DNA of 60,179 nucleotides, the filler included, from Jimgerdemannia flammicorona (Eukaryota): NCBI GenBank assembly GCA_003990765.1. It is 3 parts of 3 records of this genome, joined end to end, with 100 filler letters (N's around TTAATTAATTAA, not from the genome) between each part and the next. Parts side by side here need not be neighbours in the genome. Positions count along the whole stretch, not along the records: positions 40,189 to 60,179 come from RBNJ01001785.1; 2 more parts are not named here. One strand, written 5' to 3'. The first letter of the stretch is position 1; each line of letters starts with the position of its first letter. Made by a program: the position numbers and the translations under genes. Of this stretch, positions 20,230-56,400 are shown piece by piece. The notes below the pieces were generated by a model that had not been told where the DNA came from, ran no database searches, and saw only the letters and a program-made list of their open reading frames with translations.

Positions 20230-21543
20230 TGTAATGTGCCTGACTTAATGGAGGCAAATTACAAGGTTTGGGGGTTGATGTAGTTTGGCTTGAGCCCCTA
20301 GTTACTTTGTCAAAAAGCAACAAAATGTTCTAAGATTCCTGAGGTCCTTGGTGTTTAGTGATATAATAGTCAAAACTGGATATCTGCAAGTAATTTGTAT
20401 GTCAATTTCCTAATTGGGACAGTTCTCTGAGTGTAGCAGTGATTTGTATGTCTTTCCTTCTTAGTTCAACTGGGAATTGGTAGAATTTCATATGTAGCAT
20501 GATGAGTTCCTTATGAGTGATGATCTGGCAATTTAGTGGTTTTTCTCCTTAGGTGACGATGATCTCCAAAAGTATGCAATTTCTGGGTGATGGTTTTGTA
20601 TAGCATGATGATCTCTATATAGTGCAGGTGGACTTCTTATATGATTTGGCAGATAACTCAATTTGGCTCTCTGGGAATCATATGGTGTGGATTCTTCTTC
20701 TGGGAATAATAACTCGAATGACATAGATAATTCAAATAACTGGAAATAATGCTAGTTGTAGGTAACTTGATAACTCGGGCTCTCTGGAAATAATGGATAA
20801 CTCAGATAGTGTAGATAACTCAGATGATGCAGAAACTCAGATGGCACAAATTGGGCTCTTCTGGAAATATAGATAACTTGAAAATGGTGGCAAAGTTCTT
20901 CCTTAAACTTGGGTGGCAAACTTCAGGCTTATCTGGCAAGTGAACCAAAAATAGACCTGTTCTTTATATTGGAAAGTAGACTGGAGTGGAAAAAGGGGAC
21001 CAATGCTCACAATCTCCTAGTAGTGGCTTTAGAGCAGACATTTCTCCTAAGTGTTACAATCCTTCCTGGATCAAGTGGTTTTTGGCAGGCATATCTCTTG
21101 AAGTGTAATAGGCAGACTTGTCTTTTGCTTTTGGATTCAATTTTGGACTCTTCTTTGTATCAGAAAGTGAACCAGAGTTGAAATGTGTTCTGAATTTTGG
21201 ACTAAGGTTTATTCAATCTTGTCTCTGGGATAATTTATACATTGTGGTTGCTATCTGGTTGCTATGTGGCTAACTATAGATTACTATCTATGGCAGATGT
21301 ACAGAGTCTGTATGGTGTACAGGACCTATATAGTGTACAGAGTCTGTATAGTGTACAGAGTCTGTATGGGTAAACAGACCCTTTCTGGTATGGCTGGCTA
21401 ATTATAAGTATGATGGGCATGAGTAATTATGATATACTAGAAGTCATGTCATGCTGAGAGCCTATGTCATCTGGTTAAGTATGCTAATTATTTATATCAT
21501 CTGGCTAAGTTATAATTCAGGTGATATATTTTGGTTTGTTACA
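20230..21543 (-). repeat. 3' LTR of element 1
   Basis: Direct repeat of 29107-30420; abuts PPT-like TAGTGAGGGCTGA (21544-21556, minus). Internal 18-bp tandem TGTACAGAGTCTGTATRG near 21298-21380. Confidence 0.93.
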
Positions 21544-21559
21544 TCAGCCCTCACTAAAG

Positions 21560-22065
21560 GATAGTCTGTCCCAGACAGTTCTTCAGTCATCATCTCAATA
21601 AGCATAAACTGCTTCTGCATCTATACCTATTCTATCATCTTCATTGTCTGTACTATGGTTACTCCATTCTATGGGCTCTTCTTCTTCTTCAGAGAATAGA
21701 ATTTCGATGGAATTGATGAGGCTCAAATAGATAATAGGGTTCATTCCTTGAATGTCATTCAGGGAGAACTGTGCCTATATCAGAGCTGTGACATTTCATT
21801 TGTAAATGGTGTATAGTCTGTCTGCAGCAGTAGTATCTCTTCTGGTCAGACTTGTGGTATTCCTGATATAGGTCTGCTCTGGGGCTGAGAGATTCTGCAA
21901 TTGTTCACCAATTGTATAATAGGCCTGCAGTTGGTGAACTTGTAGTAGGCATCTGGCCAGGGTGAGATTTTCTTGATGAACTTGGATCTTCTGAAGGGGG
22001 TTTCTATTAGCTTGACCAAATTGGGGTAAAGAAACTGGTAGGGCCTGGAAGGAGCTGAGGACCAA
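21560..22065 (-). pseudogene. Extra 3' ORF (ORF3) of element 1, with in-frame stops
   Basis: YYTIGEQL...TSLTRRDTTAADRLYTI...LNDIQGM plus an acidic tail, between integrase and PPT; resembles 47257-48066. Confidence 0.6.
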
Positions 22066-22079
22066 TGTCTAGAGGTGCT

Positions 22080-22827
22080 GATCAATTCTTTGGCTCATAG
22101 TGTAGAGGGAAGATATAGTTTGAGGTGATTGATGTGTACTGGTGTTCTCAGGGTTCATCCATCCATGCTTCTTAAATAGATGCTGGTTTCTCTGATGTTG
22201 TGTACAAGATAAGATCCTTCCCATTTGGGTTCCAATTTGGCAGCAAAATTTGTTTCAATCATGCTTCTCCAAACTAGTACTTGATCTCCAATCTTGATCT
22301 CCTGATTCTTCTGTTTCTGGTTATAATACTTCTTTTGTCTTTCTTGGGCTTTGATAATCTGACCTCAGGCTTGATTGTATAACTGTTCTGCCTTTTTGAA
22401 GAGGTCTCCAAGATTCTCATGGTCAGTAGTTCTGGTTTTCTTGGCAAACATTATTTCAAATGGCTTTTATTTAGTGGAGGCAGCAGGGGTGTTCCGAATT
22501 TCCCATAGGATCTCAGGTAAGCAAAGGTCCCAATCAGTAGGATTGACTCAAGTAAGTTCTTTCTTGATGGTCTGGTTTATTCTTTCTATCATGCCATTGG
22601 TCTGAGGGTGATAAGATGTGGTCTATTTGAGGTGGATCTTGTGAATTCAGGCATAACTTATAATTATGTTGTTGATGAATTCTGTGCCTCAGTCAGAGAT
22701 GAGTTCTTCTGAGGTCTATATCTGAGTGTGAGTCTATGGAGAAGGCCTACAATAGTTAAGGCATCTGCAATTTCCATTAGGAAAGCCTTGGGCCACTTGG
22801 TCAGATGTTCTACAAATACAAGGATGT
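22080..22827 (-). pseudogene. Element 1 integrase core/C-terminus (non-inverted part)
   Basis: ILVFVEHLTKWPKAF...YHPQTNGMIERIN...GDQVLV...KLEPKWEGSY...VHINHLK; no chromodomain. Confidence 0.85.
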
Positions 22828-29088: not shown

Positions 29089-29104
29089 TCCAGTTGAGCC
29101 CCCA
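29089..29104 (-). promoter_or_regulatory. Primer-binding site, tRNA-Pro type
   Basis: TGGGGGCTCAACTGGA, 2 nt after the 5' LTR; matches PBS-Pro TGGGGGCTCG after CpG decay. Confidence 0.75.
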
Positions 29105-29106
29105 AA

Positions 29107-36350: not shown

Positions 36351-36380
36351 AGTGAAGAATGGTGTGTTATCCAGCTTTCT

Positions 36381-38908: not shown

Positions 38909-40088
38909 AGCTTCTTTCTCTGCTATCTTACCAGTTATAAGATTTGGTAGGTAATCTTCCAAGTCTCCTTTCTCCTATTATAACCCCCTCTATCTTGAGT
39001 TGGTTTGCTATGCCTGTATGAGTATAGTGGGAGGAGGGCAATGATGATGAGTTGTCCTTTTGTTAGTGTCTGATTGGTGTCTTCTCCACTTTTTCATTGT
39101 CTCTGGTACCTTCAGCTGTATCTGAGATATATTTATTTTGGTACAGTACCTTCTTTCTTTTACCATTGCCAACAAGGTCTCATCTCAGTATATCATAGAT
39201 TATGTAGAGAGTTGGCTGATCTTGGGTGTCAAGTGTCTAGTATAGGTTATCTACAGGTCCTCAGTATCTATAGTGAGGCTCTCTGGCTTTGGTGAGCTTC
39301 TTAGTGAGTACAGTTCTGATATAGATGACTGTTTTTTGGGTGATGTCAGGATGGGAGAGGAGATGGCCATTATAGATAAGAGGAAGGGTATAATAGTGAA
39401 CTAGTAGGGTACCAGACTAGGGGTAGTCATTGGGGCTGGGGCAGGTACTGCTTCAGTGAGGCCTTTTGATTGGTACAGAGTAGTTAGATAGTAGGTATCA
39501 CTCTCAGCTTCTTTTGGTGATTTGTGGGGTTGGGCCCTGGTTATTAGAGGGAGTCAGGGGGCCCAAGACTACTCATTTCAGACATTTTGGCTATACTCAA
39601 CTAGAACTGAGAGCTGATATGGCAATATAATTGAGGCCCACAGACTTGAGTAGTGGGGTATTGGGGGTCTCCTCCTGCCTCATGTATAAGTTCTCTACTC
39701 ATCTCATCTAGGAGAACCAGGCCCTATCCACTATAATATACTTTGATGAGAGTTTTTTCTTTGCTTATCATCCTCTTTGGGGTGACAGAGGCTATTTTAT
39801 TCAGCTTGGGCATGACCTTGTACATATGTTGGGGTTTTGGGCATGTGCTTTCAGTCATTGGCATATGGCTGATTTCTCCCTGGTGGTAAGAAGAGCATAG
39901 TGTACAGAATGAGGTATGGGCCACTATAGGCTCTGCTGCATCTGGTATGGTTGAGCTGCTGAACAATAGCTAGTCTAAGATTAATAAGAGAGCAGTGCTT
40001 GATGAGTGGTGGGAGAGGGTTTTGGTCTATATAGTCTAGATTCTCTTCTAATAAAAATCCACAGGACTCTGAGTCTATAAAACAAAAA
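38909..40088 (+). repeat. Unclassified dispersed repeat, copy A
   Basis: 38909-39944 is a reverse-complement homolog of 48881-49920. Confidence 0.8.
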
Positions 40089-40188
40089 NNNNNNNNNNNN
40101 NNNNNNNNNNNNNNNNNNNNNNNNNNNNNNNNTTAATTAATTAANNNNNNNNNNNNNNNNNNNNNNNNNNNNNNNNNNNNNNNNNNNN
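40089..40188. other. Artificial contig linker
   Basis: N44-TTAATTAATTAA-N44. Confidence 0.95.
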
Positions 40189-40532
40189 CTCCAGAAGCCT
40201 AGCTAACTTCTGTCAGAACTGAGACCGGTATATAAATCCCCAAAGACTTAAGTAAACCCATTGAACCTGAATTCCAAGGCGAATTCAGTCTGTGCACAGC
40301 AAAGAACAAGACCCTCAAAATAGGGCACAAGAGAAAGACCTTTGTAACAGAAGGCAAACCAGAGAAAGACCTTTGAAAGATAAGGCACTGCCACTACAAA
40401 CTACTTTAAGCGAGTGCTTCCTCAAACTGAAGGCTTCTTGGTACACATTGTGTACTAAGTCTCTAAGTAATAGTCCACTTCCCTAATTATCCAAAGGATA
40501 AGAGAGAGATAGAAGTGAGAGTTATTACAACT

Positions 40533-40544
40533 TGGTAGCAGCGG
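40533..40544 (+). promoter_or_regulatory. Primer-binding site, initiator tRNA-Met type
   Basis: TGGTAGCAGCGG 3 nt after the LTR end; identical at 58046-58057. Confidence 0.85.
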
Positions 40545-40631
40545 ATTACCAGCCAAAAAGGCACCAAAGAACACACTCCTGAAAGTTGGAACAAGACCAA
40601 CCTTGGACAGGAGTAACCCCCAGAACCAACT

Positions 40632-43600
40632 GTGGATCCTCAAACCAGAGCCAGAGAAGCCCTTGCCATTAGGACCAGGTGGTTCCAGGAAACTACAGAC
40701 ACAGAGACCCGCCAGCTTGTAATTGACCAGGCTTACAGAGATCTATACCAGGTCTTTAGGACATACCACCCAGGACTTAGGAATATTGTTAGCCGCCGTA
40801 GATTCTACGAACTCCTCCGAGGACACATTGGAACCACTAGGACTCCAGAATCTACTGCTGTAGCCACCCAGGATTTTTTAGATTATATCTCACCCTCTGC
40901 TGCAAGAGAAGTAGCTACCGAGTGGATTACCTCTGACAGATATCATCATACACCTACCAAGACCTCCCTCTACTACAGGCTAGTTGTATACTATGCCTCT
41001 GCCATAACTAGGTACGAGAACAAGCAAGCAGGCCACCCATCCCCTACTGCTGAACAAGGAGCAGGCCCATCTACTCAGCCAGAGACTGATATCCTCTTTG
41101 AAGGATCTAGCCAGTACGAGGATGTACTATCTCATCAGAAAAGGGAGTCAGACGAAGACTCTACAGGTTACCAGTCTGACGATAGCCAACAAGGAACAGC
41201 AGGCCTAGGAATTTACCAAGGAACCACAGGTCAAGAAGATCAGACCCCAGAACCAACCCAGCCACCTACACAGAGGTTTGGTTTACCCTCCCTCACAGGA
41301 CTCTTTGATTTAATATCTGGGAACCAAGTAACCCCAAGCCATACAGCACTACAACCCCACTAAGCAGTACAATCTTCAGGAGAATCTACCCCAACAGGCC
41401 CACCACCACTAGTCAATACAATGGTAGATGTCAACATTGTAGCACTGACTACCCAGCTAGCAGCACTAGCAGGAATAGTAGGACAAATTGCTAAATAGAA
41501 TAAACCAACCAAGACCTTGCGAATCCCAACATTCAGTGGAAAAAACAGCGATATCGAAAACTTCATCAATACAGTTGACACAGGCTACCGAGCAAACCAA
41601 TGGAATGACAACCGAGTACCTATAGGAATGCTCACCAACAACCAGAACAGCACCCTCCAACAGCTGTTTGCCACATCAGCAGCACAAGTAGAAACAGTAG
41701 CCACATTCTTCACTGGAACAGCAGCCGAATTCTGGCAAACCTTGAAACAATACCTAGTAACCTGGGAAGCCCACCCTCAAGTCAATGGACAAGTACCTGG
41801 CAACAATAGACCAGGATGGGATGACTACGAAGCAGGCCCAGGATTCAAGGCCTTGCTACTGACCAAATTCCAAAATGCAGCCTACATACAAGAAACTTGG
41901 AACAAACTATCCCAGATGAAGTTTCACAAGAATGGCGAAGAGGATCTAGAGACCTTTGCCACCAGAATGGATGCATACCTCAAAATGATTGGACTTACCT
42001 ACCAGGAGAACAATTTGGCCATCAATGGTACCAGAGCCAACCATCTTTTTGCAGCCCTACCAGACTGGCTCACCCAGAAGATCAAGGAATAAGGTCTTCC
42101 CCAAGGATGCCCCCACTACTTATGGTGCTTTGCTCAAGTACAAAGAAGAGCCCATGAAATCCTTGCTGCATAAGCTCTACAAAATCAAGAATACAAGAAG
42201 GATAACCAAGATAGGAGAAATCCTACCAGGAGAAATAATCAAAGGAATGACCAAAGATATGATCAAAGATATGATCAAAGGAACCAGCGAAATCCCAGAG
42301 GACCCAGACCTCCCACCGAGGATGAGAAGAAGCAGCTCCATGAAAAAGGATTGTGCTTCATCTGCAAGAAGGCAGGACACATCTCAGTCAAATGCCCCGA
42401 GAAGAGAAACAGATCAGGCAAACCCAGTAACCAGAACATCACTGTCATTGGAGAAGGTCCAGGAAAGAAGAACCCCAAGAATGTCATCAAAGTACAGAAG
42501 ATATGGTACAAGGCTACCATCCCCACTAAGGCCCACCCAACTGATGCTGGATATGATCTCTACAGCAGCCAAGACCTCACCATCCCACCAAGCACCAATG
42601 CTACAGTGCAAACAGAGATTGCAATATAAGCTCCCAAAGGAACATACATCCGCCTTGCTGAGCGAAGTAGCCTAGCCAAAGAGTTCAACATTGGGCTAGG
42701 CAGAGGAGTAGTTGACCAAGGATTTACTGGTGAAATCCATGTCATCTTGCGAAATTTTGGAGACACCTCATTTGAAGTCAAAACAGGCCAAAGGATTGCC
42801 CAAGCAATCATTGAAGAAATCCGTCAAGATCTCACCATTGAAAAAGTCCCCAAACTCTCTCAGACAGACCATGGCAAGAAAGGGTTTGGATCTACCAACA
42901 AACCTCCCAGTCAAAAGGTCACTACCATGAAGGAAGATGATGAAAACTGGTACAAGAGAATTACAGATGGTTATGCACCATGTGGACGATGCCCTCATTC
43001 TATTCAAATATACTGCATGGAACATGTTGGTGAATGCCATGCATGCCTCTCCAAAGTTTTCAAAATTCAATCTGAGAAACGCCAAGCTCAACAGACTGAG
43101 GAACCCAAACAAGACAACCCTCCTTGTGAAGGATGGGGAGAAACTGACTTCGAGGAGACTGACAGCAATTGGGACAACAATGAGGATGAAGAGCTCAATA
43201 CCATGAAGAAGGAGGACAGTTGCATCAAGTTCACAGGCCAAGTCCACAGACAGAATGTCAATGTCTTGCTTGATAGTGGTGCTACTGGAAACTACATCAG
43301 CACCAAGACTGCCAAGAGGATTGGAGCCTGAAGCAGACCCACTACTGAGAAAAGAAGTGTTACCTTTGGTGATGGAAAAACTGCACCATTGACTAAGATC
43401 TGCGAAGACCTGTTGCTCAAGATTGGCAAATATCAAGAGAAGTTGGACTTCAGCATTGTAGACCTCCCAGGACAAAACATTATCTTAGGAAAAGCCTGGC
43501 TGACCCAGCACAACCCAGACATCAACTGGAGAACCAATGAGGTTAACTGACCTACGAAGGCAGAAAGATCACCCTGACACCCCAGGAAAGTACCAACCAC

Positions 43601-46600
43601 CAAGGAATCAAAATCATCTCTGCCATTCAACTGAAGAGACTCTCTCAAAAAAAGGGAAACACCTACTTCATCTGTATAGTACAAGAAGTCACTGAAGCTA
43701 CAAGCAGCCCAATTCCAACAGAAGCTCAAGAACTGTTCAAAGAATTCCAAGATGTATTTCAAGATCCTCAAGGACTTCCACCCAAGTGCCAAATCCAACA
43801 TGGAATTGATCTTATTCCAGGATCTGAACCCCCATACAAGAGTATCTACCAACTGGCCCAACCTGAGCTCAAGACCCTCAAGGATGACTTGACCAAACTA
43901 CTGGCCCAAGGATACATTGAACCCAGCCGCTCTCCATTTGGAGCCCCCATTCTATTTGTCAAGAAGAAGGATGGCTCTCTGCGAATGTGTATTGACTACA
44001 GAGCCCTCAACAAGATCACCATCAAGAACCAGTATGCCTTGCCCAGGATTGATGAGTTGCTACACCAAATCTTCAAGGTAAAGACCTTTTCTCTACTGGA
44101 TTTATGAAATGGCTACCACCAGATTCTCATTGACAAGAAGGACATCGAAAAGACAGCTTTCTGAACATGGTTTGGACACTACCAGTTCTGAGTCATGCCT
44201 TTTGGTTTGACCAATGCACCAGCAACATTCCAGTATCTGATGAATGACATCTTTGGACCACTCCTCAACATCTGTGTCCTTGTGTATATTGATGATATAC
44301 TAATCTACAGCGAGACAGTAGAACTACACTACACCCACCTTAGACAAGTACTGACTCTTCTGTGAGAACACCAGCTCTATGCTAAGATGAGCAAGTGTAA
44401 GTTCTACCAAGACCAGATTGAATACTTAGGACACATCATCTCTGCTGAAGGTATCAATGTGGACCCCTGAAAGGTATCAGCTCTCAAGAATATTCCTATT
44501 CCTACTACCCTCAAGCTACTCCAGTGCTTTCTGGATATTGCCAGTTATTACTGAAGGTTTATCCAAGGATACTCTGCTATTGCAGCCCTATTGACCAGCC
44601 TGGCCCGTAAAGGAGTGAACATCAAAGCTGAATAGACCCCCGAATGCACCCTGGCTATAGACCATCTCAAGAGACTCCTTACCGAGGCCCCAGTGCTAAT
44701 TGCACCTGATCCTACCAGACCATTCACTCTGACCACAGATGCCTATGACATTGCTATTGGAGTAGTGCTCAGCCAAGAAGACTGCTCAGTGGCCTACCTT
44801 TCACAGAAACTCAAGCCAGCTGAGACTTGGTATACCACCCATGAGAAAGAACTCCTGGCTATTGTCACTGCACTCCAGAAATGGCGCCATTTCCTCCTAG
44901 GACAGCCATTTGTGGCCTATACTGATCACCATGCACTACGGTATATTCACACACAGCCCATGCTGACCCACAGACAAGCCCACTGGATGGAAATCATTGC
45001 CAACTTTGATATAGAAATCAAGTATATCCCAGGCAAAACCAACTGTGTGGCTGATGGTTTCTCCAGATACATAGAAGATGAACTTGTCTTCGTGGTCAAA
45101 GTAATTGGAGACCTTACCCAAATGATCAAGGATGGCTACCAACAAGACAGCCCCCTGATGAATTTCCTTCAATTCTGCCAAGACCCAGAGGCTGAGATTC
45201 CAGAACCCATGAGGCAAATGGCCAAGAGATTCACCTACCATGATGGACTTATCTACAGGGACCATGACAGAGTAGTTGTACTCAACAATGATACTCTGCG
45301 ACTCAAGATCATGCAGGAACTCCATAATACTCCTGCAGCAGGACACTTTGGTTTCGAAAAGACCTACAACCTCCTCTTAAGAGAGTTCTACTGGCCAAAG
45401 ATGACCAAGGATATCAAAGACTTTGTGGTCTCATGCGAGATGTGCCAAAGGTTCAAAAGTGGTAACAAGCTACCAGCAGGACTCCTGCAATCCTTACCTA
45501 TCCTGAGTCACAATTGGGACCAGATTGCGATGGACTTCATTGTTCAACTCCCCAAGACCAAGGCAGGATGGGATGCCATCGTGGTATTTGTGGACCGCCT
45601 AAGTAAATAAGCCCATTTTGCACCCACCAAGACCACTGCTACAGCACCAGAGATTGCTGAGATCTTTCTCAACCAAGTATTCAGACTACATGGCATGCCT
45701 AGCACCATTGTATCTGACCGAGATGCCAAGTTCACGAGCAATTTCTGGAAGGCATTTTTCTCCCTCCATGGAACCAAGCTGAAGTTCTCTACTGCCTACC
45801 ACCCTCAGACTGATGGTCAAACTGAGCGACCCAACAGAACTATCAAACAGATGCTTAGCATCTTCTGCTGTTACAAGCAAAATGATTGGGACAAGTACCT
45901 AGCCCATGCTGAGTTTGCCTACAACAACAGTCAGCAAACCTCCATAAAGAAGACTCCATTCTTCCTGAACCATGGTCAACACCCAAGGACCCCAAGTACT
46001 ACCACAAAATCAGCAGTCCCAGCAGCCCAAGATCTGGCTGAGACCATTTCTGACCTTATGCGAATGACAAGAGATGCTCTCATAGAAGCACAAGACTACC
46101 AGACCAAGTACGCGAACTTGAAGCAAAGAGAAGCCTCCTACAATATTAGTGACATGGTCATGCTTAGAACATACCACCTCCACCCAGACACTCTGGCACA
46201 ACAACCAGCCAAGAAACTCCGTGCTAGAAGAATTGGACCCTACAAGATTGTGGAAAAAATCAGCAAAGTCAACTACAAGTTGCAACTTCCCCACAATATC
46301 TGAGTACACCCAGTATTCCACATCAGCCAATTGGTGAACTACCATGAGAACCCATTCCCGAGCATACAGTTCCACCACCACCCCCAATTAGGATCAATGA
46401 TCATGAGGAATTCGAAATAGAGGAAATACTTGACCACAAGGTCTGGAAATATCCTAAAACAGTCAAGCACTTTTTCCTGATCAAGTGGAAGGGTTACCCC
46501 ACCCATGATGCTACCTGGGAAAAAGAAGAAGCCCTGAAGAATACATGCGAAGCCCTCCAGGACTACATGGAAACACTCACCCCCCAGCAAAGGAAGGAAC

Positions 46601-46611
46601 TACAGCTCTAA
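40632..46611 (+). pseudogene. Element 2 gag-dut-pro-pol polyprotein (stops and frameshifts)
   Basis: CFICKKAGHISVKC knuckle; dUTPase AGYDL/ERSSLA/GVVDQGFTGEI/IAQAI/KGFGST (~42490-42900); [19 protein letters not shown] and IAMDFI integrase; GPY; chromodomain FEIEEILDHK..FLIKWKGY..TWE (~46410-46570). Confidence 0.93.
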
Positions 46612-47184
46612 GTATATGAGTACACAGTGAGTAGAAGGATACCACATATTTTTATCTGGAAACATATAATACCAAACATCGCGAAAAAAGGAACACTATG
46701 GATAACCAACAAGAAGATACCTGAGCCAAAGAACAATCTAGTACAGTACAGCAAAATACATTTGAACAACTCCATTTCACGCCATCTGTGTCATCTCTGC
46801 TGGATGATGATGGACGCTTCATGTGAAACTTAGGAAAGCCGACAATGTCGAAACCAGTCTAAGTCCATCCATGTGACAGATATTGTTACTAGGAATTGCC
46901 TCGGATTACAAGAAAAGTCTATTTCCGAGAGGTTTGAACCCCCAGCCGCGACAATGGGAGCCCTCACCCTAGACAAGGATGGTCAGTCCTTGCAAATGCG
47001 CCAACCAGACAAAAAAAAAGTCGACCAAGACCTGTTAACCCTGTGTAACCACAACTACGAGTGATGAGAGCTTTGAAATCCGAATTTTCTCATGTGACCA
47101 GCACATGTTCTGCTTATGGCACAGGTCATGCATTTTGCCAAAAAAGTGTGACCAAGGGAAGGTCACATCAGATGGGTGAATAAG

Positions 47185-47192
47185 TATAAATA
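47185..47192 (+). promoter_or_regulatory. Putative TATA box of an internal ORF3 promoter
   Basis: TATAAATA (same as LTR TATA ~48400) starting 72 nt before ATG 47257, preceded by several CATGTGA(C)/GTGAC motifs. Confidence 0.5.
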
Positions 47193-47256
47193 CTCAAGGC
47201 AAGAATACCTCGCAACTCTCATCCCCCTTCCCTCACAAAGAAAAGACAAGACAAGA

Positions 47257-48066
47257 ATGCCTGCCACCCACTGCCAAACTGCCCACCATAGCCAGCCCCT
47301 CCCAAGCCAGGTTGACCGCCTCTTTGGACACATCCAGGTTGCTATCCAAGGAAGGAACCGCCGCTCAGAGGCCCTTAACCTCTCCAGCCCAGACCTAGGA
47401 CCGTATGTTCTTGACTGCCGTGAACTTATCGAAAGGGCCTACCTTGCTACCAGCCACCTAGAAATCTGGCATGAATACGAAATTGGTCACCAGCTTCTCC
47501 AACATACAAATGGCCTATCCATGGACCAGGTCTCTGACTGGACTCACTTAGACAGGCACGAGCAAAGACTTGCTAAGAAGGTCCATCAAATCATGTGCCA
47601 TGCACCCTTCGCAATCCCCAACCTCAACTACATACAACTAAAGGACTTCCAGAATCTCTCTTTCCCTGAGGTTGATGCCCTAGAAGTCAAGGTCGCCCAA
47701 GAAGCCAACTCCTGGATTACCCTCAAGTCTACTGACTGCAAACCCTACTGGAGCTCCCTCCTGAATGACAACCCTGACCAATGGCTCCAAGGTCTCTCTG
47801 ACCTCTTTGAAGGACCACCTATCCGAATGGATATTCCCAGGCATGAAGATCAAGAGCCCTACTTGGATGGCCCCAATCGCATCAGATGGAGAACCCCTAC
47901 ACCAGCACCTATTCCAATGCAAGAACCATTTGCAGACCTCATTGACTTCTCCATCCTGGACAGCGAGCCATCTGCAACCACCACCCCCTCTGCCTCTAAG
48001 GAAGATTCTCCACCTTTCTCTCCCCTGGTTCTCAATTTCTCAATCAATGAGGACGTTGATTTCTAA
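47257..48066 (+). CDS. Intact accessory ORF3 of element 2 (269 aa, unknown function, not env-like)
   Basis: Stop-free ORF between chromodomain and PPT with its stop abutting the PPT; no signal peptide or TM segment evident; homologous remnant in element 1. Confidence 0.75.
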   Translation: MPATHCQTAHHSQPLPSQVDRLFGHIQVAIQGRNRRSEALNLSSPDLGPYVLDCRELIERAYLATSHLEIWHEYEIGHQLLQHTNGLSMDQVSDWTHLDRHEQRLAKKVHQIMCHAPFAIPNLNYIQLKDFQNLSFPEVDALEVKVAQEANSWITLKSTDCKPYWSSLLNDNPDQWLQGLSDLFEGPPIRMDIPRHEDQEPYLDGPNRIRWRTPTPAPIPMQEPFADLIDFSILDSEPSATTTPSASKEDSPPFSPLVLNFSINEDVDF

Positions 48067-48077
48067 GGAGGGAAGGA

Positions 48078-48880
48078 TGTAACAGAATGAGCGAACAGAC
48101 GTGACGAACGACGAACGATCACATGACCCAGCAATGACATCATCATATGATCGAGCGTGGCATATGAACGAATGAACGAACGATGTGAAACGACATGGAA
48201 AAAACGATATCCAGCTTATCCCCAATAATCGGCGCCACAGCAACAGTTGCCACAGCTGCTGATCATTGCCTAGTAATTGAGGTCCTGATCACAAAGATAT
48301 TCTTTACCAAAAACCACCTGATAAAGATTGCGATCACAAACCTCATTATAGTTACCAAATTAGTCACTCATACTTAGTCAGACATCGCAGACCAACTTGT
48401 ATAAATACCCCCCAGTTTCCATCCGAAATAAAGCAGTTTTAGTTCAGTCCTTGATACAAGAATCAAGTCCCCCCTCTACACACACATTCCCCTGAGTCTT
48501 AGTAATGATATCTAAGTGACTATAGTGTTTCTGACTAAACTCCAGAAGCCTAGCTAACTTCTGCCAGAACTGAGACCGGTATATAAATCCCCAAAGACTT
48601 AAGTAAACCCATTGAACCTAAATTCCAAGGCGAATTCAGTCTGTGCACAGCAAAGAACAAGACCCTTGAAATAGGGCACAAGAGAAAGACCTTTGAAACA
48701 GAAGGCAAACCAGAGAAAGACCTTTGAAAGATAAGGCACTGTCGCTACAAACTACTTTAAGCGAGCGCTTCCTCAAACTGAAGGCTTCTTGGTACACATT
48801 GTGTACTAAGTCCCTAAGTAATAGTCCACTTCTCTAATTATCCAAAGGATAAGAGAGGGATAGAAGTAAGAGTTATTACA
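48078..48880 (+). repeat. 3' LTR of element 2
   Basis: TGTAA...TTACA, 803 bp; matches 40189-40529 and 57231-58042; TATAAATA ~48400, AATAAA 48427. Confidence 0.95.
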
Positions 48881-49920
48881 CAGGTGCAGCAGGGCCTATA
48901 TTGGCCCATACCTCATTCTGTGCACCATGCTCTCCCTATCACCAAGGGAAATCCAACCATATGCCAACGACCGAAAGTGCATGCCTGAGAACCCAACATA
49001 TGTACAAGGCCACACCCGAGCTGAATAGAATAGCCTCTGCCACCCCAAAGAGAATGACAGGCAAAGAAAAAACCCTCATCAAAGCACAACATGGTGGGTA
49101 GGGCCTGGTTCTCCCAGTCGAGGTGAGTAAAGGACTTACACATGTGGTGGGAGGAGACCCCCAATACCCCACTACTCAAGCCTGCGGGCCTCAATTACAT
49201 TGCTGTATCAGCTCTTAGTTCCAGTTAAGTGCAGCCAAGATGCCTGAAATGAGTAGCCTCGGGCCCCCTGACCCCCCCTGATGACCAGGACCTAACCCGC
49301 TAACCTGCCAAAAGAAGCCAAGAGTGATACCTACCACCTAACCACGCTGCACCAATCAAAAGGCCCCACCAAAGCAGCACCTGCCCCAGCCCCGATGACC
49401 ACCCCCAGCCTGGTACCCTACTGGTTCACTGTTATCGCCCTTCCTCCTATCTTTGATGGCCATCTCCCCTCCCATCCTGATAACACCTGAAAAGCAGTCA
49501 CCTATGCCAGAACTGTGCTTGCCAGGAAGCTTGCCAAAGCCAGAGGGCCCCACCACAGGCACCGAGGACCTGCAGGTAACCTACACTGAGCACTTGATGC
49601 CCAAGGTTGGCCGACTCCCTATATAGCCCAAGACACACCAAGACAACACCTTGTTGGTGATGGCAAAAGGAAGAAGGTGCCGCACCAAAACAGATGCACT
49701 CCAGATGCAGCCAAAGATACCAGAAACTGCGAAAAAGTGAAGAAGACACCGATCAGACACTGATAAAGGGGCAACTCATCACTATTGCCCTCCTCCCACT
49801 ATGCCCATGTAGGCACAGCAAACCAACCCAAGGTAGAGGGAGTAATAATAGGGGAAAGGGAACTCAGAAGGTTGCCTACCAAACCTTGTGACCAGTAAGG
49901 TAGTGGAGAAAGGGAGGGTG
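48881..49920 (-). repeat. Unclassified dispersed repeat, copy B (target of element 2 insertion)
   Basis: Homologous to 38909-39944; cut exactly at the LTR end. Confidence 0.8.
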
Positions 49921-51170: not shown

Positions 51171-53404
51171 CAAATACCAAAATACCAAACAGTACTCTCT
51201 GTGGTCACCAATTGACCAAATTGTCCATATACTCCCAGACCAGTACTAAGTTCCATCATCTTGCACTTACTCTAATTCAGCTTAGCCCCTGGCAGCCTCT
51301 CATACTGCCCAACCCCTTTCTGCAAGAGGTCCACATCCTCCATACTACCCAACCCTACCACCATGTCATCCATGAAAGCACCTAGCTTCCAGACCATTAC
51401 CCATCTATAGTCTAGAAAGCCACTCCTTCAGCTATACTAGCAATAGCTCCAGAGAGAGTTTATAAAGGAGGGGGGAGAGAGGGTCCCCCTGTGGCACACC
51501 TTGTCCAAGGCAAACTCCAGGCCACTCTATCCATTCATCATAACTGCTACTCAGTATCCCCATACTAAGCCCATCAATCACTCTGTCTCTGCTATACCAA
51601 ATTCTACCCTCCTCAGAACAGCCTCCAAATAACTCTACCATACTCTGTCATAGGTCTTCTCTTGATCCAGGAAGACCATCTGGCCATCCACCTGCCAGCT
51701 CCTACAGCCTTTCAAGACATTCTACACCCAAGCAGTACTATCTCTGATCTGCCTCCTCTTGATAAAGTCTTGCTGCTCTTCACCAACTAGTATACCAATA
51801 TACTGCTGCATTCTTCCTGCCAGAATCTTTTAGACCAGCTTTCTATTCACATTCAGCAGCATAATAGGCCACCAATTCCACTATACTTACCAATTGCCCT
51901 TTTCCTTATATAGAAGGGAAACTAATTCCAAGGAACTATTACTAATCCAGCTGCTCTCCTTCAGAACAAAGTTGGCCATCTCTACCAACCAGCCACCAAA
52001 CTCTGTCTGGAACTCCTTTTAGAATTCCCAGAGCAACCCATCCTCCCCAGGTGATGAACTAGTCTGCATCTTCCTCAATACCTCCAATACTTCATCTAAA
52101 GACACCTCACCCATTACTGCCTCTCCTATCTCAGGTAATGCTATTACTGGCCAATTGTTCACCATATTGTCATTATCCTCCCAAAGCACTGCATCCTCAG
52201 CATGCTTCCCTCCATCCTGCCAGAGAGCCTGTCATTGTCCCAAGACCTCTCCTAATATATCAGCAATCTCTAAGACCTCCACTCCATCTTCATACAATAC
52301 TGAGGCCCAGCTATGTCATATCCTTCTGGTCTTCAAAATGCCAGATAGATATTTAGTTGACCTCTCTCCTTCCTCCAACCACCTAGCCCACAATCTGGCT
52401 AGTAGGCCTCCTACTGCCCTGTCCTCAGCTACCCCTGCAACTCTGCCACCTCTACTGCTAACTGGTGGTGTACCTCTCCAGACAAGTTTCCCCCTTCTAT
52501 TAGCTTCAATTGCCCTCACAGCCCCTTCTCTACCCTCCTTTTCTTGTCCTTCTGCTCCTTCCCAGCCACCTCTCCAACATCACACCAGTAAGTATCTGTC
52601 AAATGTTTGAATTTACTCCACTATTCTGCCATCAACTACCCACCATTCTGCCATTATGCTACCTCCTGTCTCACAATGGCCACAAATTGTTCCTTCTCCT
52701 TCTTCCTCCTGAGTAAAGCGAAATTAAGCTCTACCACTGTCTGCTGCTTGGAATCTATCACATATCTCTACTCCACAATAATCTGACCAAGAGCACCAAT
52801 GTACCTCTGCAATGTCCAGCACATTACCCCAACACTCGGCTACTAGCACTCAATCAATTTATGTCTCAACCAATTCTTTACTGACAGGGTATCACTGAGT
52901 GTAAGGTTCTGACTTATCTCCCTGATGCTGATAGATACTATCCATCAGTCCCATGTCATGCTCCACCTGAAGCCATCAAGATAGTCTAGAGGATATCACA
53001 ACTCCTGCCCTACCATCTGATCTATCCAGTATTCAATCATGTACCATATTGAAGTTTCCCCTCAGAATGTTCAATACAACCACCTCCTGACCTTCCCAAG
53101 CCTGCCAGCTCTCAACCCATTGCTTTCACTCTCTGCCAACTACAGGGAGATAAACCAAGCCTACTGCCAAACCATCACCTGCCTCTCCTTTTAGTCTTCT
53201 CCACACCAATCTGTCACTATAGACCTCTACCTCCACTAGCTCACCTTTGCCTATGCCAACCAAGATGTCTACCTGCTTGTTCCAACCTACTTTACTATAC
53301 TATTCTTTACTCCATACCTCATAGTCTTGCTCCCCATAGGCCTGAACATCCTGAAGAAAAACAATATCATATCTTCTGACTTTAAGCTATCCAAATAGCT
53401 ACTG

Positions 53405-53406
<2 letters not shown>
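51171..53406 (-). mobile_element. Fragment of L1/Tx1-like LINE (LINE C) ORF2
   Basis: APE remnants, WLEEGERSTKYL, QGVPQGDPLSPLL, FMDD; interrupted by the hAT at left and LINE B at right. Confidence 0.85.
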
Positions 53407-53459
<53 letters not shown>

Positions 53460-56400
53460 GTCTCTTAGATTCCATTTTTATCAATCTTCCCCCTAGTATC
53501 TATGACAATTGAATCTTCACTAACTACTACTACTAAATTATATATAGAGAAGAACTCTTCAGCCAACTTCTTCCTTCTACCATACCCCTCAGTCATCTAG
53601 CACTAGGTTACTACAGCTCTTCTGTACAATGTCCTGCACCTTCCTCAAGACCCCCAGCTGCTGCCACTTTCCCTGATACCACCACCCTTGCACCACCTCC
53701 TGCAGGAGCCACCTCCACCTCTCTACTAACTAATCAATTCCTATTGATGGGTCCCATTTGAACACCCATTGCTAATGTATCACCATCAGGACCCAGACTC
53801 CAAGAATCTGGCCTAGCCCCCCCCAGACATCTCCAGTCACCCCCACCAATTACCACTTGATAATCAGACTGGTGGGTTCCCCTAGCTGCCTACCTTCAGA
53901 ACCCCAATATTCCTCCAATATCCTTCTAACCCTGAACATCTCATCAGAACATACTCTGGTAATTGAACCACACCCCCATTCACCTCACTGCACCATTCAC
54001 ACTCTCTACCATCTTCTACCTCCATCCATCTTGTCTGATATCCCAACATAACCATTCCTCCTCAAGAACTGCCACCACACTACCCAGTACTTAGGCAGTA
54101 CAACCTTGAGCAAGGAAGCCCCCCAGCTTCAGATCTGTTCCCAATCTCAGCCATCTCCAAATTCCACCCTCTACCACTCTATAGGCCACCTCTCAAGGGG
54201 GCCAGACCTGATCCATTTCATTGCCTTTGTCAGAGAGTACTCAGCCAACTGGTGGCCACCAATCTGTAGGCCCTCCAACTGCTACCAGCATTGCTCAAGA
54301 TCCACACCTTTGTCTATTCCTGGCCCTGTTAACCTCATACCCAGCCAGGCCTCTACAATACTCCACCAGAACCCCTTAAACTGTAGTTGACTGACCCTTT
54401 CAACCTGAAGCAGCCCTTGCATATCCTTCCAAGCCTCACCATGGAGGTAGAACCTGACCTCCCAATTATCCATAGTCAGTCTGCCCCATCCTTCCTCACC
54501 CAGTTCTACTAGCCAATGTCCCTACTAGCCCCAGAGCACCTTCAACCACCTCTGGAAGTCCACCAACCCCAAACCCCATCTACTGTCCTCAACACCACTA
54601 TCTCTCAACCAATTTGCCACCACCTACCTTGCTATAACCATCCTTCCACCACCTTCTTCAGCCACTGTACCACCTATCCAGGAAAATCCAGATAATATCT
54701 CAGATATCACAACTTTGGCAACCAGTATATATTTAAATCCACCACTCTCCCCATAAAAGAGAAGCACCTCCCTGACTACCCTGTCAGTGCTCTCTCCCAC
54801 TTCTGTATCATACTACACTACCATTCGCTTGGCAGAATCATCCTATATACTGAAAACCAGATGTCCAAATACTAAACAGTACTCCCCATAGCCACTGTAT
54901 ATCCAAATTGTCCAATCCCTCTCAAGCCCATACTAAGCTCCATTATCTCACACTTGTCTCAGTTCAATTTCACTCTAGCCAGCCTCTCATATTGTCAGAC
55001 CCCTTCCTGCAGATATTCCATATCTACTATACAGCCCAGTCCAACCACTATATCATCGGCAAAGGCCCCCAGCTTCCAGACCATTTCCCCCATTTGCAAT
55101 CTAGTAAGCCACCCCTTCAACCAAGTCAACAAGGGCTCCAAAGAGAGAATATATAGTAAGAGAGAGAGAGGGTCACCCTGTAGTACACCTCTCCCTAAGG
55201 CAAATTCTGGACCACTCCACCTATTCATCAGTACCACTGCTCTATAGCCTCACACCAGGCCCATCAATCTCCTTGCCTCTACTATACCAAATCCCATCTT
55301 CTGCAATACTGCCTTAAGATAATTCCACTGTACCCTGTTGTATGCCTTCTTCTGATCCAGGAAGACCATCTGTCCATTCACTTGCTGACTCCTGCACCCC
55401 TCTAAGACATTCTGTATCCAGGCAGTGCTGTCTTTAATCTGTCTTCCTTTGCAAAACCTCACTGGTCCTCACCCACCAGTCTACCAATCCTCTGCTGCAT
55501 CCTTCTGGCCAGAATCTTAGACACCAATTTTCTATCACATTCAGTAACATGATTGGCCACCAATTCTGCCATACCTGCCAATCTCCCCTTTTCTTATATA
55601 GCAGTGAGATCAGCCCTAAGGATCTGTTGCCAATCCAGCTACCCTCCTCCAAAACAAAGTTCATCATTTCTACAAGTCAGACTCTAAACTCAATCTGGAA
55701 CTCCTTCCAAAATTCCCAAGGCAGTCCATCCTCCCCTGGTGAAGAGTCTGCCTATACTTTTCACAGTACTTCCAATACCTCTTCAAGGGCCACTCTCCCT
55801 ATTACTGCCACACCCATCTCAGGTTGTGCTACCACTGACCAACTACCCACCAAATTGTCATTATTCTCCTATAGTACTTCTTCCACTGGCTCCCCTTCTT
55901 CCTACCAAAGGACCTGCCACTGGTCAGAGATCTCACTCAGCATTTCTACAGTATCTGTGACCTCAGTACCATCCTCTCACAATACTGAGGTCCAGCTGTA
56001 CCACACCTTTCTAGCCTTCAGGATATCTGAGAGATACTTTGTAGACCTCTCTTCTTTTTCCAGCCACCTAGCCTGCAGTCTTACCAGCAGGCCATCTACT
56101 ACTCTAGACTCAGCTGCCTTAAGATCTAGCTGCAACTCAGCCACCTCTGCTACCAATTGAGCACTCCTTTCTCCTGACAAGTTCTCCTCTTCCATTAGTC
56201 TCAACCTCCATCACAGCCCTCACTCCACTCTCCTCTCTTTATCTATCTGCTCTTTTCCAGCAACCTTCTCTACATCTCACCAATAAGCACCAGCCAGATA
56301 CTTAAATTAATCCCACTACTGTTCTATCTGCTGTTCTTCCACCTTCCACTATGTCACCTCCTACTTAGCAATCTCCACAAATTGGTCCCTCTCTGTCTTT

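What the first reader, a model, noticed from the sequence alone, without database searches (positions are those of the whole stretch)
47040..48077. Intact, separately promoted non-env accessory ORF3 shared by two unrelated Gypsy lineages
Seen: element 2 has a stop-free 269-aa ORF (47257-48066) between chromodomain and PPT, although its gag-pol carries many stops. A TATAAATA and clustered CATGTGA(C) motifs precede it; these are likely deaminated CACGTG E-boxes, since the LTR copies show TCACGTGAC vs TCACATGAC. Element 1 (different LTR, PBS-Pro, no chromodomain) has an ORF in the same position that aligns by eye: YEIGHQL..(x)..THLDRHEQRLAKKVHQI..LKDFQNL vs YTIGEQL..(x)..TSLTRRDTTAADRLYTI..LNDIQGM, both with acidic tails. 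Known: extra 3' ORFs in Gypsy elements are usually env-like, but these lack an evident TM segment or signal peptide. Inference: an uncharacterised soluble retroelement accessory protein family, possibly a transactivator or anti-silencing factor.
Basis: partly seen in the sequence, partly recalled or inferred. Interest (0 to 1): 0.82.

Follow-up and report, generated by a model that had tools for sequence, protein, structure and literature searches.

The report
Conserved extra gene in fungal retrotransposon
A decaying fungal Gypsy-type retrotransposon carries, between its polymerase gene and its right-hand repeat, a real and evolutionarily conserved extra gene for a soluble acidic protein of no known family, but the claim that a second element in the window carries the same gene is not supported.

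Summary
The 269-aa ORF at 47257-48066 is real and far longer than chance allows (0 of 5000 simulations). It lies between the chromodomain end of pol and the polypurine tract of a degraded, dUTPase-bearing chromovirus. It founds a small protein family: 11 database proteins plus one metagenome locus (L001). L001 again ends directly at a polypurine tract and LTR start. Against L001, dN/dS is 0.23 while the flanks cannot be aligned. The family has no Pfam, PDB-sequence or convincing fold match and no membrane segment, so it is a non-env accessory gene.

Its intactness in this copy is unremarkable (P about 0.11 at the decay rate of gag-pol).

Element 1, on the minus strand, also has a post-integrase ORF (22098-21583). 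It is broken by four stops and has intact 171-172-aa relatives elsewhere. The two ORF3 families are not demonstrably homologous: hhalign P 0.07, probability under 1%, and 10 of 150 shuffles do as well. The two elements are related, not unrelated (RT 42% identical, both carry dUTPase).

"Separately promoted" rests on motif-level hints only. Function is inferred. My best guess is a nuclear regulator resembling a transactivator, held at low confidence.

The parts
40089..40188 (.). Two runs of N (assembly gap or masked stretch) directly before the 5' LTR remnant
   Evidence: The apparent truncation of the 5' LTR at 40189 therefore need not be biological.
40189..40529 (+). 5' LTR of element 2 (only its 3' 341 nt are readable), followed by the primer-binding region
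   Evidence: 96.5% identical to 48540-48880 and 93.8% to 57701 onward. The primer-binding region is read.
40617..46608 (+). Degraded gag-pol: zf-CCHC, dUTPase, protease, RT, RNase H, integrase (H2C2, core, SH3) and chromodomain
   Evidence: Pfam hits. 14 in-frame stops and 2 frameshifts.
46612..47067 (+). Stretch between the chromodomain and ORF3. It is either a decayed C-terminal tail of pol ending at the double stop 47062-47067, or a spacer.
   Evidence: It is in the chromodomain frame with a single stop at 46831 up to the double stop at 47062-47067, then five more in-frame stops before 47152, nine in all counting the one at 46609. Its last ~20 residues resemble a peptide read upstream of the ORF in L001. 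No Pfam hit.
47090..47168 (+). Cluster of TCATGTGAC / RTGTGACC boxes, including the inverted pair TGTGACC-N7-GGTCACA (47147-47167)
   Evidence: All 3 window matches to TCAYRTGAC lie in element 2: here and at the start of two LTR copies. 3 of 4 RTGTGACC matches fall in this stretch. The inverted pair is shown. No function is shown.
47184..47193 (+). GTATAAATAC, a candidate TATA box 64 nt (its last base) to 73 nt (its first base) before the ORF3 ATG
   Evidence: The same 10-mer occurs only here and at the LTRs' own TATA (48399, 57559); 0.11 matches are expected by chance. L001 has TATAAAAG 80 nt before its ATG.
47220..47256 (+). C-rich block (CATCCCCC) and A-rich leader up to the ATG
   Evidence: The TATA-to-CATCCCCC spacing is 35 nt here and 34 nt in L001. 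50 of 87 positions are identical in alignment A4, while the rest of the flank cannot be aligned.
47257..48066 (+). ORF3, 269 aa (P0002): a soluble, acidic, mainly helical protein with a disordered acidic and hydrophobic tail
48065..48077 (+). Polypurine tract, overlapping the ORF3 stop codon
   Evidence: The 19 nt TTGATTTCTAAGGAGGGA(A/G) are conserved in L001.
48078..48880 (+). 3' LTR of element 2 (starts TGTAACAG; own TATA at 48399)
21583..22098 (-). Element 1's own post-integrase ORF (171 codons), broken by four in-frame stops. Its ATG overlaps the pol stop (ATGA).
   Evidence: Intact relatives P0015 and P0016 have 171 and 172 aa.
20230..21541 (-). 3' LTR of element 1 (minus-strand element). 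Its partner is at 29107-30418.
   Evidence: 88% identical over 1312 nt.

Best explanation
ORF3 is a genuine accessory gene of a lineage of dUTPase-bearing chromoviruses (Ty3/Gypsy). It sits in the slot between pol and the polypurine tract. It is kept by selection on the element while the element is active.

Shown:
- It is its own cistron. All five full-length relatives begin at the same Met-Pro. In-frame stops precede the ATG both here and in L001. The frame relation to the upstream coding stretch differs between the two.
- The product is a soluble, acidic (pI about 5) protein. It has a helical core of about 160 residues, a highly conserved block (FWNPILQDNPDQWLQGL..FEGPPI), and a disordered acidic tail with F-x-x-L-I-x-F and VLNF motifs.
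- The copy in this window is a methylated and decaying insertion. Its ORF3 happens still to be open.

Inferred:
- It is transcribed from an internal TATA promoter that shares a TCAYRTGAC box and the 10-mer GTATAAATAC with the LTR promoter.
- The protein acts in the nucleus as a regulator of the element's own expression. The nearest working analogy is the foamy-virus Tas transactivator with its internal promoter.

My odds: real selected gene 0.9; separate cistron 0.85; own promoter 0.4; transactivator-like role 0.2.

Element 1 carries a different, 171-codon accessory gene in the same slot.
For: - The open frame is far beyond chance: 0 of 5000 and 0 of 2000 simulations.
- The family comprises 5 proteins at E<=0.001 among 1.84 billion representatives, 9 at E<=0.01 with the profile, and locus L001. 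Identity to ORF3 runs from 13% to 64%.
- Window versus L001: dN/dS is 0.23 overall (0.18 in the first 205 codons, 0.50 in the tail). pS is 0.63 against pN 0.26. Differences by codon position are 83, 62 and 126. The upstream and LTR flanks cannot be aligned apart from the polypurine tract and the LTR tip.
- L001 repeats the anatomy: a TATA box about 80 nt upstream, a 291-aa ORF, then stop, polypurine tract and an LTR starting TGTAAT.
- Stops precede the ATG in the ORF3 frame in both sequences.
- There is no membrane-like segment, and pI is 4.5-5.0 across the members examined.
- The AlphaFold model made with 13 sequences has mean pLDDT 60.3. The core is helical at 70-90 and the tail from 217 is below 50.
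- No relative carries a name other than 'hypothetical protein'. All come from ENA or JGI metagenome contigs. That fits a gene that lives only in repeats.
Against: - No transcript start was shown. No listed sequencing run is on record as RNA, and only assembled contigs could be laid.
- The shared motifs are short. The 10-mer has E 0.23 in a direct comparison of the 195-nt upstream stretch with the LTR. Nothing else of U3 is shared.
- Window-wide counts of TCAYRTGAC and RTGTGACC are no higher than in shuffles. Only their placement is striking.
- The C-rich block before the ATG could equally be the pyrimidine tract of a splice acceptor.
- The fold gave no usable match: Foldseek found 0 at E<=0.001, and the best VIA Z of 4.1 is below the tool's stated noise level for helical proteins. 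The regulator role therefore rests on composition and analogy.
- dS of 1.35 is near saturation, so the ratio is approximate.
- Only one DNA pair was available.
- Retroelement context could be seen for only 2 members, the window and L001.
Confidence: 0.55

Rival explanations
1. One reading: the post-pol ORFs of element 1 and element 2 are diverged members of one ancient accessory-gene family, shared by different Gypsy lineages.
For: - Both lie in the same slot and orientation, and both are acidic with acidic C-terminal tails.
- The family profile's only other six-frame hit in the 60-kb window falls exactly on the element-1 ORF (21802-21924, minus strand). It gives the same Y-x-I-G-x-Q-L ... L-x-R ...
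- Against shuffles of the element-1-type proteins, the profile score is reached by 15 of 4000 (P0017) and 59 of 4000 (P0015).
- With RT only 42% identical, a fast-evolving accessory protein could have drifted beyond recognition.
Against: - That six-frame hit has i-E-value 5.2 and score -5.
- tblastn finds nothing at E<=10.
- hhalign gives probability 0.5-0.8% and P 0.07-0.11 over 43-46 columns. 10 of 150 column shuffles score as high, and the global mode gives P 0.9.
- For the third full-length element-1-type protein, P0016, 538 of 4000 shuffles reach the score. P0017's score adds two non-colinear pieces.
- The lengths differ (171 against 247-342 aa).
- The layouts differ: the ATG overlaps the pol stop in element 1, whereas it lies 195-650 nt downstream of pol behind a TATA box in element 2.
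Confidence: 0.25
2. ORF3 is expressed from a spliced, LTR-initiated subgenomic mRNA. It acts after transcription, for example in export or stabilisation of the unspliced genomic RNA, like Rev of lentiviruses or CERV of the C. elegans element Cer1.
For: - A pyrimidine-rich tract followed by AG lies 17 nt before the ATG (47216-47240).
- A short arginine patch (R-N-R-R, residues 33-36) is conserved in kind across the family.
- CERV is a precedent: a novel protein of a Gypsy-type element made from a spliced mRNA and needed for genomic RNA export (PMC10309623, abstract read).
Against: - No match to the 5' splice-site patterns GTRWGT or GT[AG][ACT]G[TC] occurs in the leader or gag start of either copy (40440-41100 and 57955-58615). 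This is a consensus test only.
- No joint into this region was seen. The leader was not part of the stretch laid, so this says little.
- A TATA box at a conserved distance is not needed under this reading.
Confidence: 0.15
3. ORF3 is a host gene or gene fragment recently captured by this element, with no role in the element's life cycle.
For: LTR retrotransposons do transduce host sequence in the sense orientation (PMC7264820, passages read). ORF3 is somewhat richer in G+C (0.51) than the rest of the element (0.46).
Against: - No relative among 5.8 billion clustered proteins or 1.84 billion representatives carries a name other than 'hypothetical protein'. All sit on short metagenome contigs.
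- L001, at 59% protein identity, has the gene in the same place against a polypurine tract and LTR. The gene has therefore travelled with the element through long divergence.
- CpG depletion matches the element (0.29 against 0.22) and not the host gene (1.04).
Confidence: 0.06
4. ORF3 is the C-terminal part of Pol, cut off in this copy by mutations.
For: It is in the same frame as the chromodomain.
Against: - Nine stops lie between them here.
- In L001 the upstream coding-like stretch is in another frame, and seven stops precede the ATG in the ORF3 frame.
- All five full-length relatives start at the same Met-Pro.
Confidence: 0.03
5. It is a chance open frame in C- and A-rich sequence, or an env-like gene.
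For: The sense strand is poor in T and G, which lowers stop frequency. Extra 3' ORFs in Gypsy elements are often env-like (PMC7264820).
Against: - Simulations that keep the composition never reach this length.
- Conservation and dN/dS argue against chance.
- No hydrophobic segment occurs in any of the seven members examined; the maximum 19-residue mean is 1.07.
Confidence: 0.02

Closest known systems
Sense-strand additional ORFs between pol and the 3' LTR of LTR retrotransposons ('aORF-3S' in plants; 'add. ORF' in fungal chromoviruses)
   Same: It has the same slot and orientation, it is kept across copies, and it has no database homologue. The review PMC7264820 (passages read) says aORFs lie most often between pol and the 3' LTR. 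[quoted passage not shown]
   Different: Plant sense aORFs are mostly env-like, with membrane segments. This one has none. Whether the 'add. ORF' drawn by Novikova et al. is this family cannot be told. The figure is not held, and the .DOC supplements were not opened.
Foamy-virus Tas (Bel1) with the internal promoter
   Same: This is the working analogy only. Tas is an accessory gene in the 3' part of the genome. It is served by an internal promoter, and it acts on both that promoter and the LTR (abstracts of PMC8670036 and PMC4929722 in the search listing). Here a TATA box and a TCAYRTGAC box occur both upstream of ORF3 and in U3. The protein is of similar size and has an acidic tail. The size and layout of Tas are recalled, not from a call.
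   Different: There is no sequence or fold similarity. The host is a fungus. Neither the promoter nor any DNA binding was shown.
CERV of the C. elegans Gypsy-type element Cer1
   Same: It is a novel, non-env, nuclear regulatory protein encoded by an LTR retrotransposon in addition to gag and pol (PMC10309623, abstract).
   Different: CERV comes from a spliced mRNA. No similarity to it was tested directly. No splice evidence was found here.
Element 1's own ORF3 family (P0015-P0020)
   Same: It occupies the same slot in a related dUTPase-bearing Gypsy element, has an acidic tail, and has no known family.
   Different: It has 171 codons. Its ATG overlaps the pol stop. Similarity to ORF3 is not significant.

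Membership tests
Chromovirus (Ty3/Gypsy with chromodomain): the carrier element | Domain order PR-RT-RNase H-integrase with a C-terminal chromodomain, LTRs, and a polypurine tract | tested here: met
   Pfam RVT_1, RT_RNaseH, Integrase_H2C2, rve, SH3_Tf2-1 and Chromo in that order. LTR pair. Polypurine tract.
Additional ORF of an LTR retrotransposon (pol to 3' LTR slot, sense) | Lies between pol and the polypurine tract on the sense strand, as a cistron of its own | tested here: met
   The same holds in L001.
Additional ORF of an LTR retrotransposon (pol to 3' LTR slot, sense) | Kept across diverged copies with signs of purifying selection | tested here: met
   dN/dS 0.23 for the one DNA pair available. 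11 database relatives have open frames.
env-like ORF3 (retroviral, errantiviral or Athila type) | Signal peptide and/or transmembrane segment | tested here: not met
   The maximum Kyte-Doolittle 19-residue mean is 0.58 for ORF3 and at most 1.07 in the six other members examined. No dedicated signal-peptide predictor was available.
env-like ORF3 (retroviral, errantiviral or Athila type) | Similarity to a known fusion glycoprotein | tested here: inconclusive
   No Pfam hit, no PDB sequence hit, and no Foldseek hit at E<=0.001. The model is of middling confidence.
One ORF3 family shared by element 1 and element 2 | Significant sequence or profile similarity | tested here: not met
   hhalign probability below 1% and P 0.07-0.11. 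10 of 150 shuffles score as high. tblastn finds none. HMM against shuffles: 15, 59 and 538 of 4000.
One ORF3 family shared by element 1 and element 2 | Same fold | not tested
Tas-type transactivator with internal promoter | Internal promoter giving a subgenomic transcript | tested here: inconclusive
   Motif and spacing conservation only. No raw RNA reads were on hand.
Tas-type transactivator with internal promoter | Homology to spumaviral Bel1/Tas | tested here: inconclusive
   Pfam scan at E up to 10 gave only a sub-threshold Apo-CIII match. The PDB profile search gave 0.
Tas-type transactivator with internal promoter | Sequence-specific DNA binding and transcriptional activation | not testable with these tools
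   The only lead is Z 3-4.1 to ParB, SopB and KorB helix-turn-helix domains over model residues 68-153. That is below the tool's noise level.

The most novel reading that the evidence does not exclude
These fungal chromoviruses are 'complex' retrotransposons. ORF3 would be a self-encoded transcription factor made from an internal promoter. It would bind the TCACGTGAC-type boxes present both in that promoter and at the start of U3, and switch on the LTR. That would be a Tas-like positive feedback loop evolved outside the retroviruses. The element-1 gene would be its far-diverged homologue, expressed instead by stop-start (ATGA) coupling to pol.
Probability: 0.12. Interest if true: 0.8.

Novelty: new variant of a known kind. 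Interest (0 to 1): 0.48.

Why it matters
Extra genes in LTR retrotransposons are widely noted, but almost none has a known function. The few that are understood (foamy-virus Tas, Cer1 CERV) turned out to be regulators that decide whether the element is expressed.

This window holds two compact, selectively maintained, family-less accessory genes in related fungal elements. The host gene's nearest protein cluster is mostly Mucoromycota, and that is a lead only. One of the two genes has a candidate promoter of its own.

They give a clean entry point for asking how fungal retrotransposons control their own expression or counter silencing. They also supply profiles that would improve annotation of fungal repeats. 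It is not a categorical surprise.

Tried and rejected
- **Whole genome.** None is held for this window, so copies could not be counted and dN/dS could not be taken across copies in the host.
- **RNA evidence.** No RNA holder is listed.
- **Laying contigs of four runs.**
  - Relatives of the whole 45600-48900 stretch are abundant in soil metagenome runs.
  - In run X4 (type guessed as RNA, may be DNA) one 946-nt contig spans exactly 47234-48138. It has a 21-nt insertion behind 48003.
  - X4 gave no cover at 46987-47233.
  - Contigs cannot show transcript ends and break at repeat branch points. I therefore count neither the contig's start nor the uncovered stretch as evidence.
- **Other collections.** The prokaryote genome collection and IMG/VR hold no relative of either family.
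- **Longer contigs.** Contigs carrying relatives exist (4.8 kb for P0004, 19.4 kb for P0024, 11.8 kb for P0020).
- **ESM Atlas for ORF3.** Only unnamed or unrelated clusters at 0.90-0.92.
- **Fold searches.** Foldseek gave nothing at E<=0.001. VIA-wide gave a best Z of 4.1.
- **PDB profile search with the element-1 family.** Only tissue factor at E 0.5-0.9, which is chance.
- **U3 duplication.** Is the ORF3 upstream stretch a duplicated piece of U3? No. Only the 10-mer and 8- to 9-mers are shared.
- **Intactness of ORF3 in a broken element.** This is not a sign of domestication. P(no break in 269 codons) is 0.11 at the gag-pol rate, and ORF3 is as CpG-depleted as the rest of the element.
- **The other 269-aa ORF, 10713-11522 (-).** It is an unrelated methyltransferase.
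- **Earlier notes of this scan.** Nothing on this genome, sequence or topic.
- **Timed-out script.** It was repeated in smaller form.
Full report
**1. What is there**

The window is eukaryotic and rich in repeats. A G+C-rich host gene lies at 144-2759. It is a dual-specificity phosphatase, and its nearest Atlas cluster is mostly Mucoromycota (score 0.96, a lead only). Nested and degraded LTR retrotransposons follow it.

Element 2 runs from 40189 to 48880.
- Only the last 341 nt of its 5' LTR are readable, because two runs of N (40089-40188) precede it.
- A third LTR plus gag start, 93.8% identical, begins at 57268 and runs off the window.
- Pfam finds, in order: zf-CCHC, dUTPase, protease, RT, RNase H, integrase zinc finger, integrase core, SH3 and a chromodomain at 46348-46608.
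- gag-pol carries 14 in-frame stops and two frameshifts in 1981 codons.

Its stop codon overlaps the polypurine tract (48065-48077), and the LTR starts TGTAACAG at 48078.

**2. Is it more than chance?**

Yes. The stop-free run is 304 codons. Markov simulations that keep the local dinucleotide make-up never reached that: 0 of 5000 for the 3' region, 0 of 5000 with ORF3's own composition, and 0 of 2000 for the whole internal region.

More telling, the protein has relatives.
- An exhaustive HMMER search of 1.84 billion representatives found 5 at E<=0.001, at 31-64% identity.
- The word-indexed search found 1 with the single sequence and 9 with a profile.
- That makes 11 distinct proteins. All sit on short ENA or JGI metagenome contigs, and none has a name other than 'hypothetical protein'.
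- The alignment shows strong blocks: LEIWHEYEIGH.L, LDRHEQR.AKK.HQIFRHAP, DALEA.VA.EA.S, FWNPILQDNPDQWLQGL..FEGPPI, PYF..., I.WR.P. These are followed by an acidic stretch with F-x-x-L-I-x-F and a terminal VLNF.

**3. Selection and context**

One metagenome contig with DNA, L001 (1535 nt), carries an intact 291-aa relative at 59% identity.
- Against the window, dN/dS by Nei-Gojobori is 0.23. It is 0.18 over the first 205 codons and 0.50 in the tail.
- pS is 0.63 and pN is 0.26. Differences by codon position are 83, 62 and 126.
- The 375 nt upstream and the LTR downstream cannot be aligned, except around the stop, polypurine tract and LTR tip.
- dS (1.35) is near saturation and this is a single pair, so the figure is rough. 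The direction is clear.
- L001 repeats the anatomy. The ORF ends ...DF, stop, AAGGAGGGAGGAT, then TGTAAT. So in 2 of the 2 cases where context can be seen, the gene abuts the polypurine tract of an LTR element.
- In both sequences the ORF3 frame is closed upstream of the ATG: nine stops between the chromodomain and 47152 here, and seven in L001.
- The coding-like stretch further upstream is in the same frame as ORF3 here but in another frame in L001.
- All five full-length relatives begin Met-Pro at the same place. ORF3 is therefore a cistron of its own and not a tail of Pol.

**4. What the intactness of this copy does and does not mean**

At the break rate of gag-pol, 16 breaks in 1981 codons, 2.2 breaks are expected in 269 codons. 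The chance of none is 0.11.

ORF3 is as CpG-depleted as the rest of the element (observed/expected 0.29 against 0.22; host gene 1.04). 135 of 156 differences between the two gag copies are transitions.

So this copy looks like a silenced, decaying insertion whose ORF3 has simply not been hit yet. The evidence for function comes from comparison between elements, not from this copy's state. The two LTR copies do read TCACATGAC and TCACGTGAC.

**5. The protein**

- There is no Pfam family. The only match was a sub-threshold Apo-CIII hit, E 0.006 and 16.5 bits against a cut-off of 34.
- The family profile has no PDB sequence match at E up to 10.
- No hydrophobic segment occurs in the seven members examined, and pI is 4.5-5.0. 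It is not env-like.
- AlphaFold with 6 sequences gave mean pLDDT 54.7. With 13 sequences it gave 60.3.
- The model has helices at 18-31, 47-83, 89-149 and 165-183, a small hairpin at 200-212, and a tail from 217 below pLDDT 50.
- Foldseek against the PDB found nothing at E<=0.001.
- The exhaustive VIA search gave a best Z of 4.1. Several helix-turn-helix DNA-binding domains (SopB, VirB, ParB, KorB, sigma region 4, GerE) aligned to residues about 68-153. The tool itself states that Z below 8-13 is common noise for helical models. I treat this as a lead and nothing more.

**6. Is it separately promoted?**

Hints in favour:
- The 10-mer GTATAAATAC occurs three times in the window: 73 nt before the ORF3 ATG and at the TATA box of the two LTR copies. 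0.11 matches are expected by chance, and 0 of 100 shuffles had three. The two LTR hits are copies of one another, so this amounts to two independent places.
- All 3 window matches to TCAYRTGAC lie in element 2. One is 95 nt before that TATA box and the others are at the start of U3.
- 3 of the 4 RTGTGACC matches crowd into 47092-47168, two of them as an inverted pair.
- L001 has TATAAAAG 80 nt before its ATG. The spacing from TATA to a shared CATCCCCC block is 34 nt there and 35 nt here. 50 of 87 positions are identical in a flank that otherwise cannot be aligned.

Against:
- The motifs are short.
- Window-wide counts of the two boxes are no higher than in shuffles.
- Nothing else of U3 is shared.
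- The C-rich block could be a splice-acceptor tract.

A consensus scan found no 5' splice site in the leader of either copy, which argues weakly against splicing.

No RNA evidence could be had. No run is on record as RNA, and only contigs could be laid. I put an internal promoter at about 0.4.

**7. Element 1 and the 'shared' claim**

Element 1 is a minus-strand element with 1312-nt LTRs, 88% identical, at 20230-21541 and 29107-30418.
- Its protease-dUTPase-RT-RNase H block (about 23000-28200) lies on the plus strand, apparently inverted.
- Gag-like sequence (28330-28821), integrase and the extra ORF are on the minus strand.
- The extra ORF runs 22098-21583, 171 codons. Its ATG overlaps the pol stop (ATGA).
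- It has four internal stops, at places where intact relatives carry sense codons.
- Read through with X, it finds 6 database proteins among 19 candidates. Two of them are full-length, 171 and 172 aa, at 72% identity.

So element 1 also has a real accessory gene in the same slot.

Is it the same gene? The evidence says no, or at least not demonstrably.
- tblastn with ORF3 finds nothing there at E<=10.
- The ORF3-family HMM run over the six frames of the window gives one other hit, exactly at 21802-21924 (-).
- Profile against profile, hhalign gives probability 0.5-0.8% and P 0.07-0.11 over 43-46 columns.
- 10 of 150 column-shuffled controls reach the score. The reversed control gives P 0.47 and the global mode P 0.9.
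- HMM scores against the three longest element-1-type proteins are reached by 15, 59 and 538 of 4000 shuffles. The best of these adds two non-colinear pieces.

A very distant relationship is not excluded. RT is only 42% identical, and the ORF3 family itself falls to 13-27% identity. I keep it at 0.25.

The two elements are not 'unrelated'. Both carry dUTPase (37% identical), integrase is 31% identical, and both LTRs begin TGTAACA.

**8. How it most likely works**

Shown:
- a selected, separate, sense-strand cistron between pol and the polypurine tract
- a soluble, acidic, helical protein with a disordered acidic and hydrophobic tail

Inferred:
- transcription from an internal promoter
- nuclear action on the element's own expression

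The tail's conserved F-x-x-L-I-x-F in an acidic setting is the kind of motif found in acidic activation domains. That resemblance is recalled, not tested. Together with boxes shared between the ORF3 upstream stretch and U3, it makes the foamy-virus Tas and internal-promoter circuit the closest working analogy (abstracts of PMC8670036 and PMC4929722).

A Rev- or CERV-like RNA role is the main functional rival (PMC10309623, abstract). I hold the transactivator reading at about 0.2.

**9. Comparison with what is known, and novelty**

- Additional ORFs between pol and the 3' LTR are a known kind. In plants they are mostly env-like (sense) or antisense genes of unknown role. Grande gene23 has its own promoter, and the fungal element Boty has an antisense one (PMC7264820, passages).
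- Bdelloid rotifer elements carry many ORF3 types together with dUTPase (PMC5408684, abstract).
- Novikova et al. [quoted passage not shown] I could not see their figure or their .DOC supplements, so identity with the present families is open.
- My searches for a described fungal non-env ORF3 turned up no characterisation of such a protein. That is not proof that none exists.

I class the finding as a new variant of a known kind: two new protein families in a known slot, one of them with a candidate promoter of its own.

Noticed in passing
window 22095-22098 (-): In element 1 the ATG of the extra ORF overlaps the stop codon of pol (ATGA). This stop-start arrangement would allow translation by termination and reinitiation, as recalled for some fungal viruses. 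It contrasts with element 2, where the ORF follows a spacer with a TATA box.
   Followed up: partly
window 23000-28200 versus 20230-23000 and 28200-30418: Element 1 seems to have its central protease-dUTPase-RT-RNase H block inverted relative to its LTRs, gag start, integrase and extra ORF. Strand asymmetry of composition flips at the same places. It could be a real inversion, a nested fragment or a misassembly.
   Followed up: partly
window 19996-20095 and 40089-40188: Each place holds two 44-nt runs of N separated by 12 nt. Each lies just left of the left LTR of an element. They are probably scaffold gaps at repeat edges.
   Followed up: no
window 38914-39944 and 48881-49912: The sequences flanking element 2 are inverted copies of each other (81% over 1033 nt). 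With the gap at 40089-40188, this may be a scaffolding artefact, or two oppositely oriented copies of another repeat.
   Followed up: no
window 42174-43000 and 25771-26406: Both elements encode dUTPase at different places. In element 2 it lies before the protease. In element 1 it lies after a gag-asp-protease-like domain and before RT. This echoes the variable placement reported for Postia placenta elements (PMC2864245).
   Followed up: partly
window 46940-47067; L001 2-91: Just before the double stop at 47062-47067 the chromodomain frame reads ...LDKDGQSLQMRQ.... L001 reads ...LHEDGQFPPMHQ... shortly before a stop. Pol may originally have run about 150 codons past the chromodomain. That would leave a spacer of only about 190 nt before ORF3.
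   Followed up: partly
window 48053-48071; L001 about 1235-1253: The last codons of ORF3 plus the polypurine tract (TTGATTTCTAAGGAGGGA) are nearly identical between the two elements, although the protein tail around them is poorly conserved. This suggests a cis-acting constraint near the plus-strand primer that overlaps the coding end.
   Followed up: no
window 48457 (run X4): One contig of run X4 carries sequencing-adapter letters directly before 48457, about 50 nt after the LTR's TATA box (table 7). The ORF3 contig of the same run begins about 42 nt after the ORF3 TATA box. This is only a curiosity. Contigs cannot show RNA ends, and the run's type is a guess.
   Followed up: no
window 30000-32500: A very A+T-rich stretch (G+C 0.21-0.33) holds 8 of the window's 16 TATAAATA matches.
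   Followed up: no
window 33000-38000 and 51180-57108: Two stretches have strongly negative GC skew. The first holds a minus-strand RT (33853-34443). The second is a diverged tandem duplication, 51180-53387 against 54867-57108 at 70% identity. They are probably further retroelement remains.
   Followed up: no
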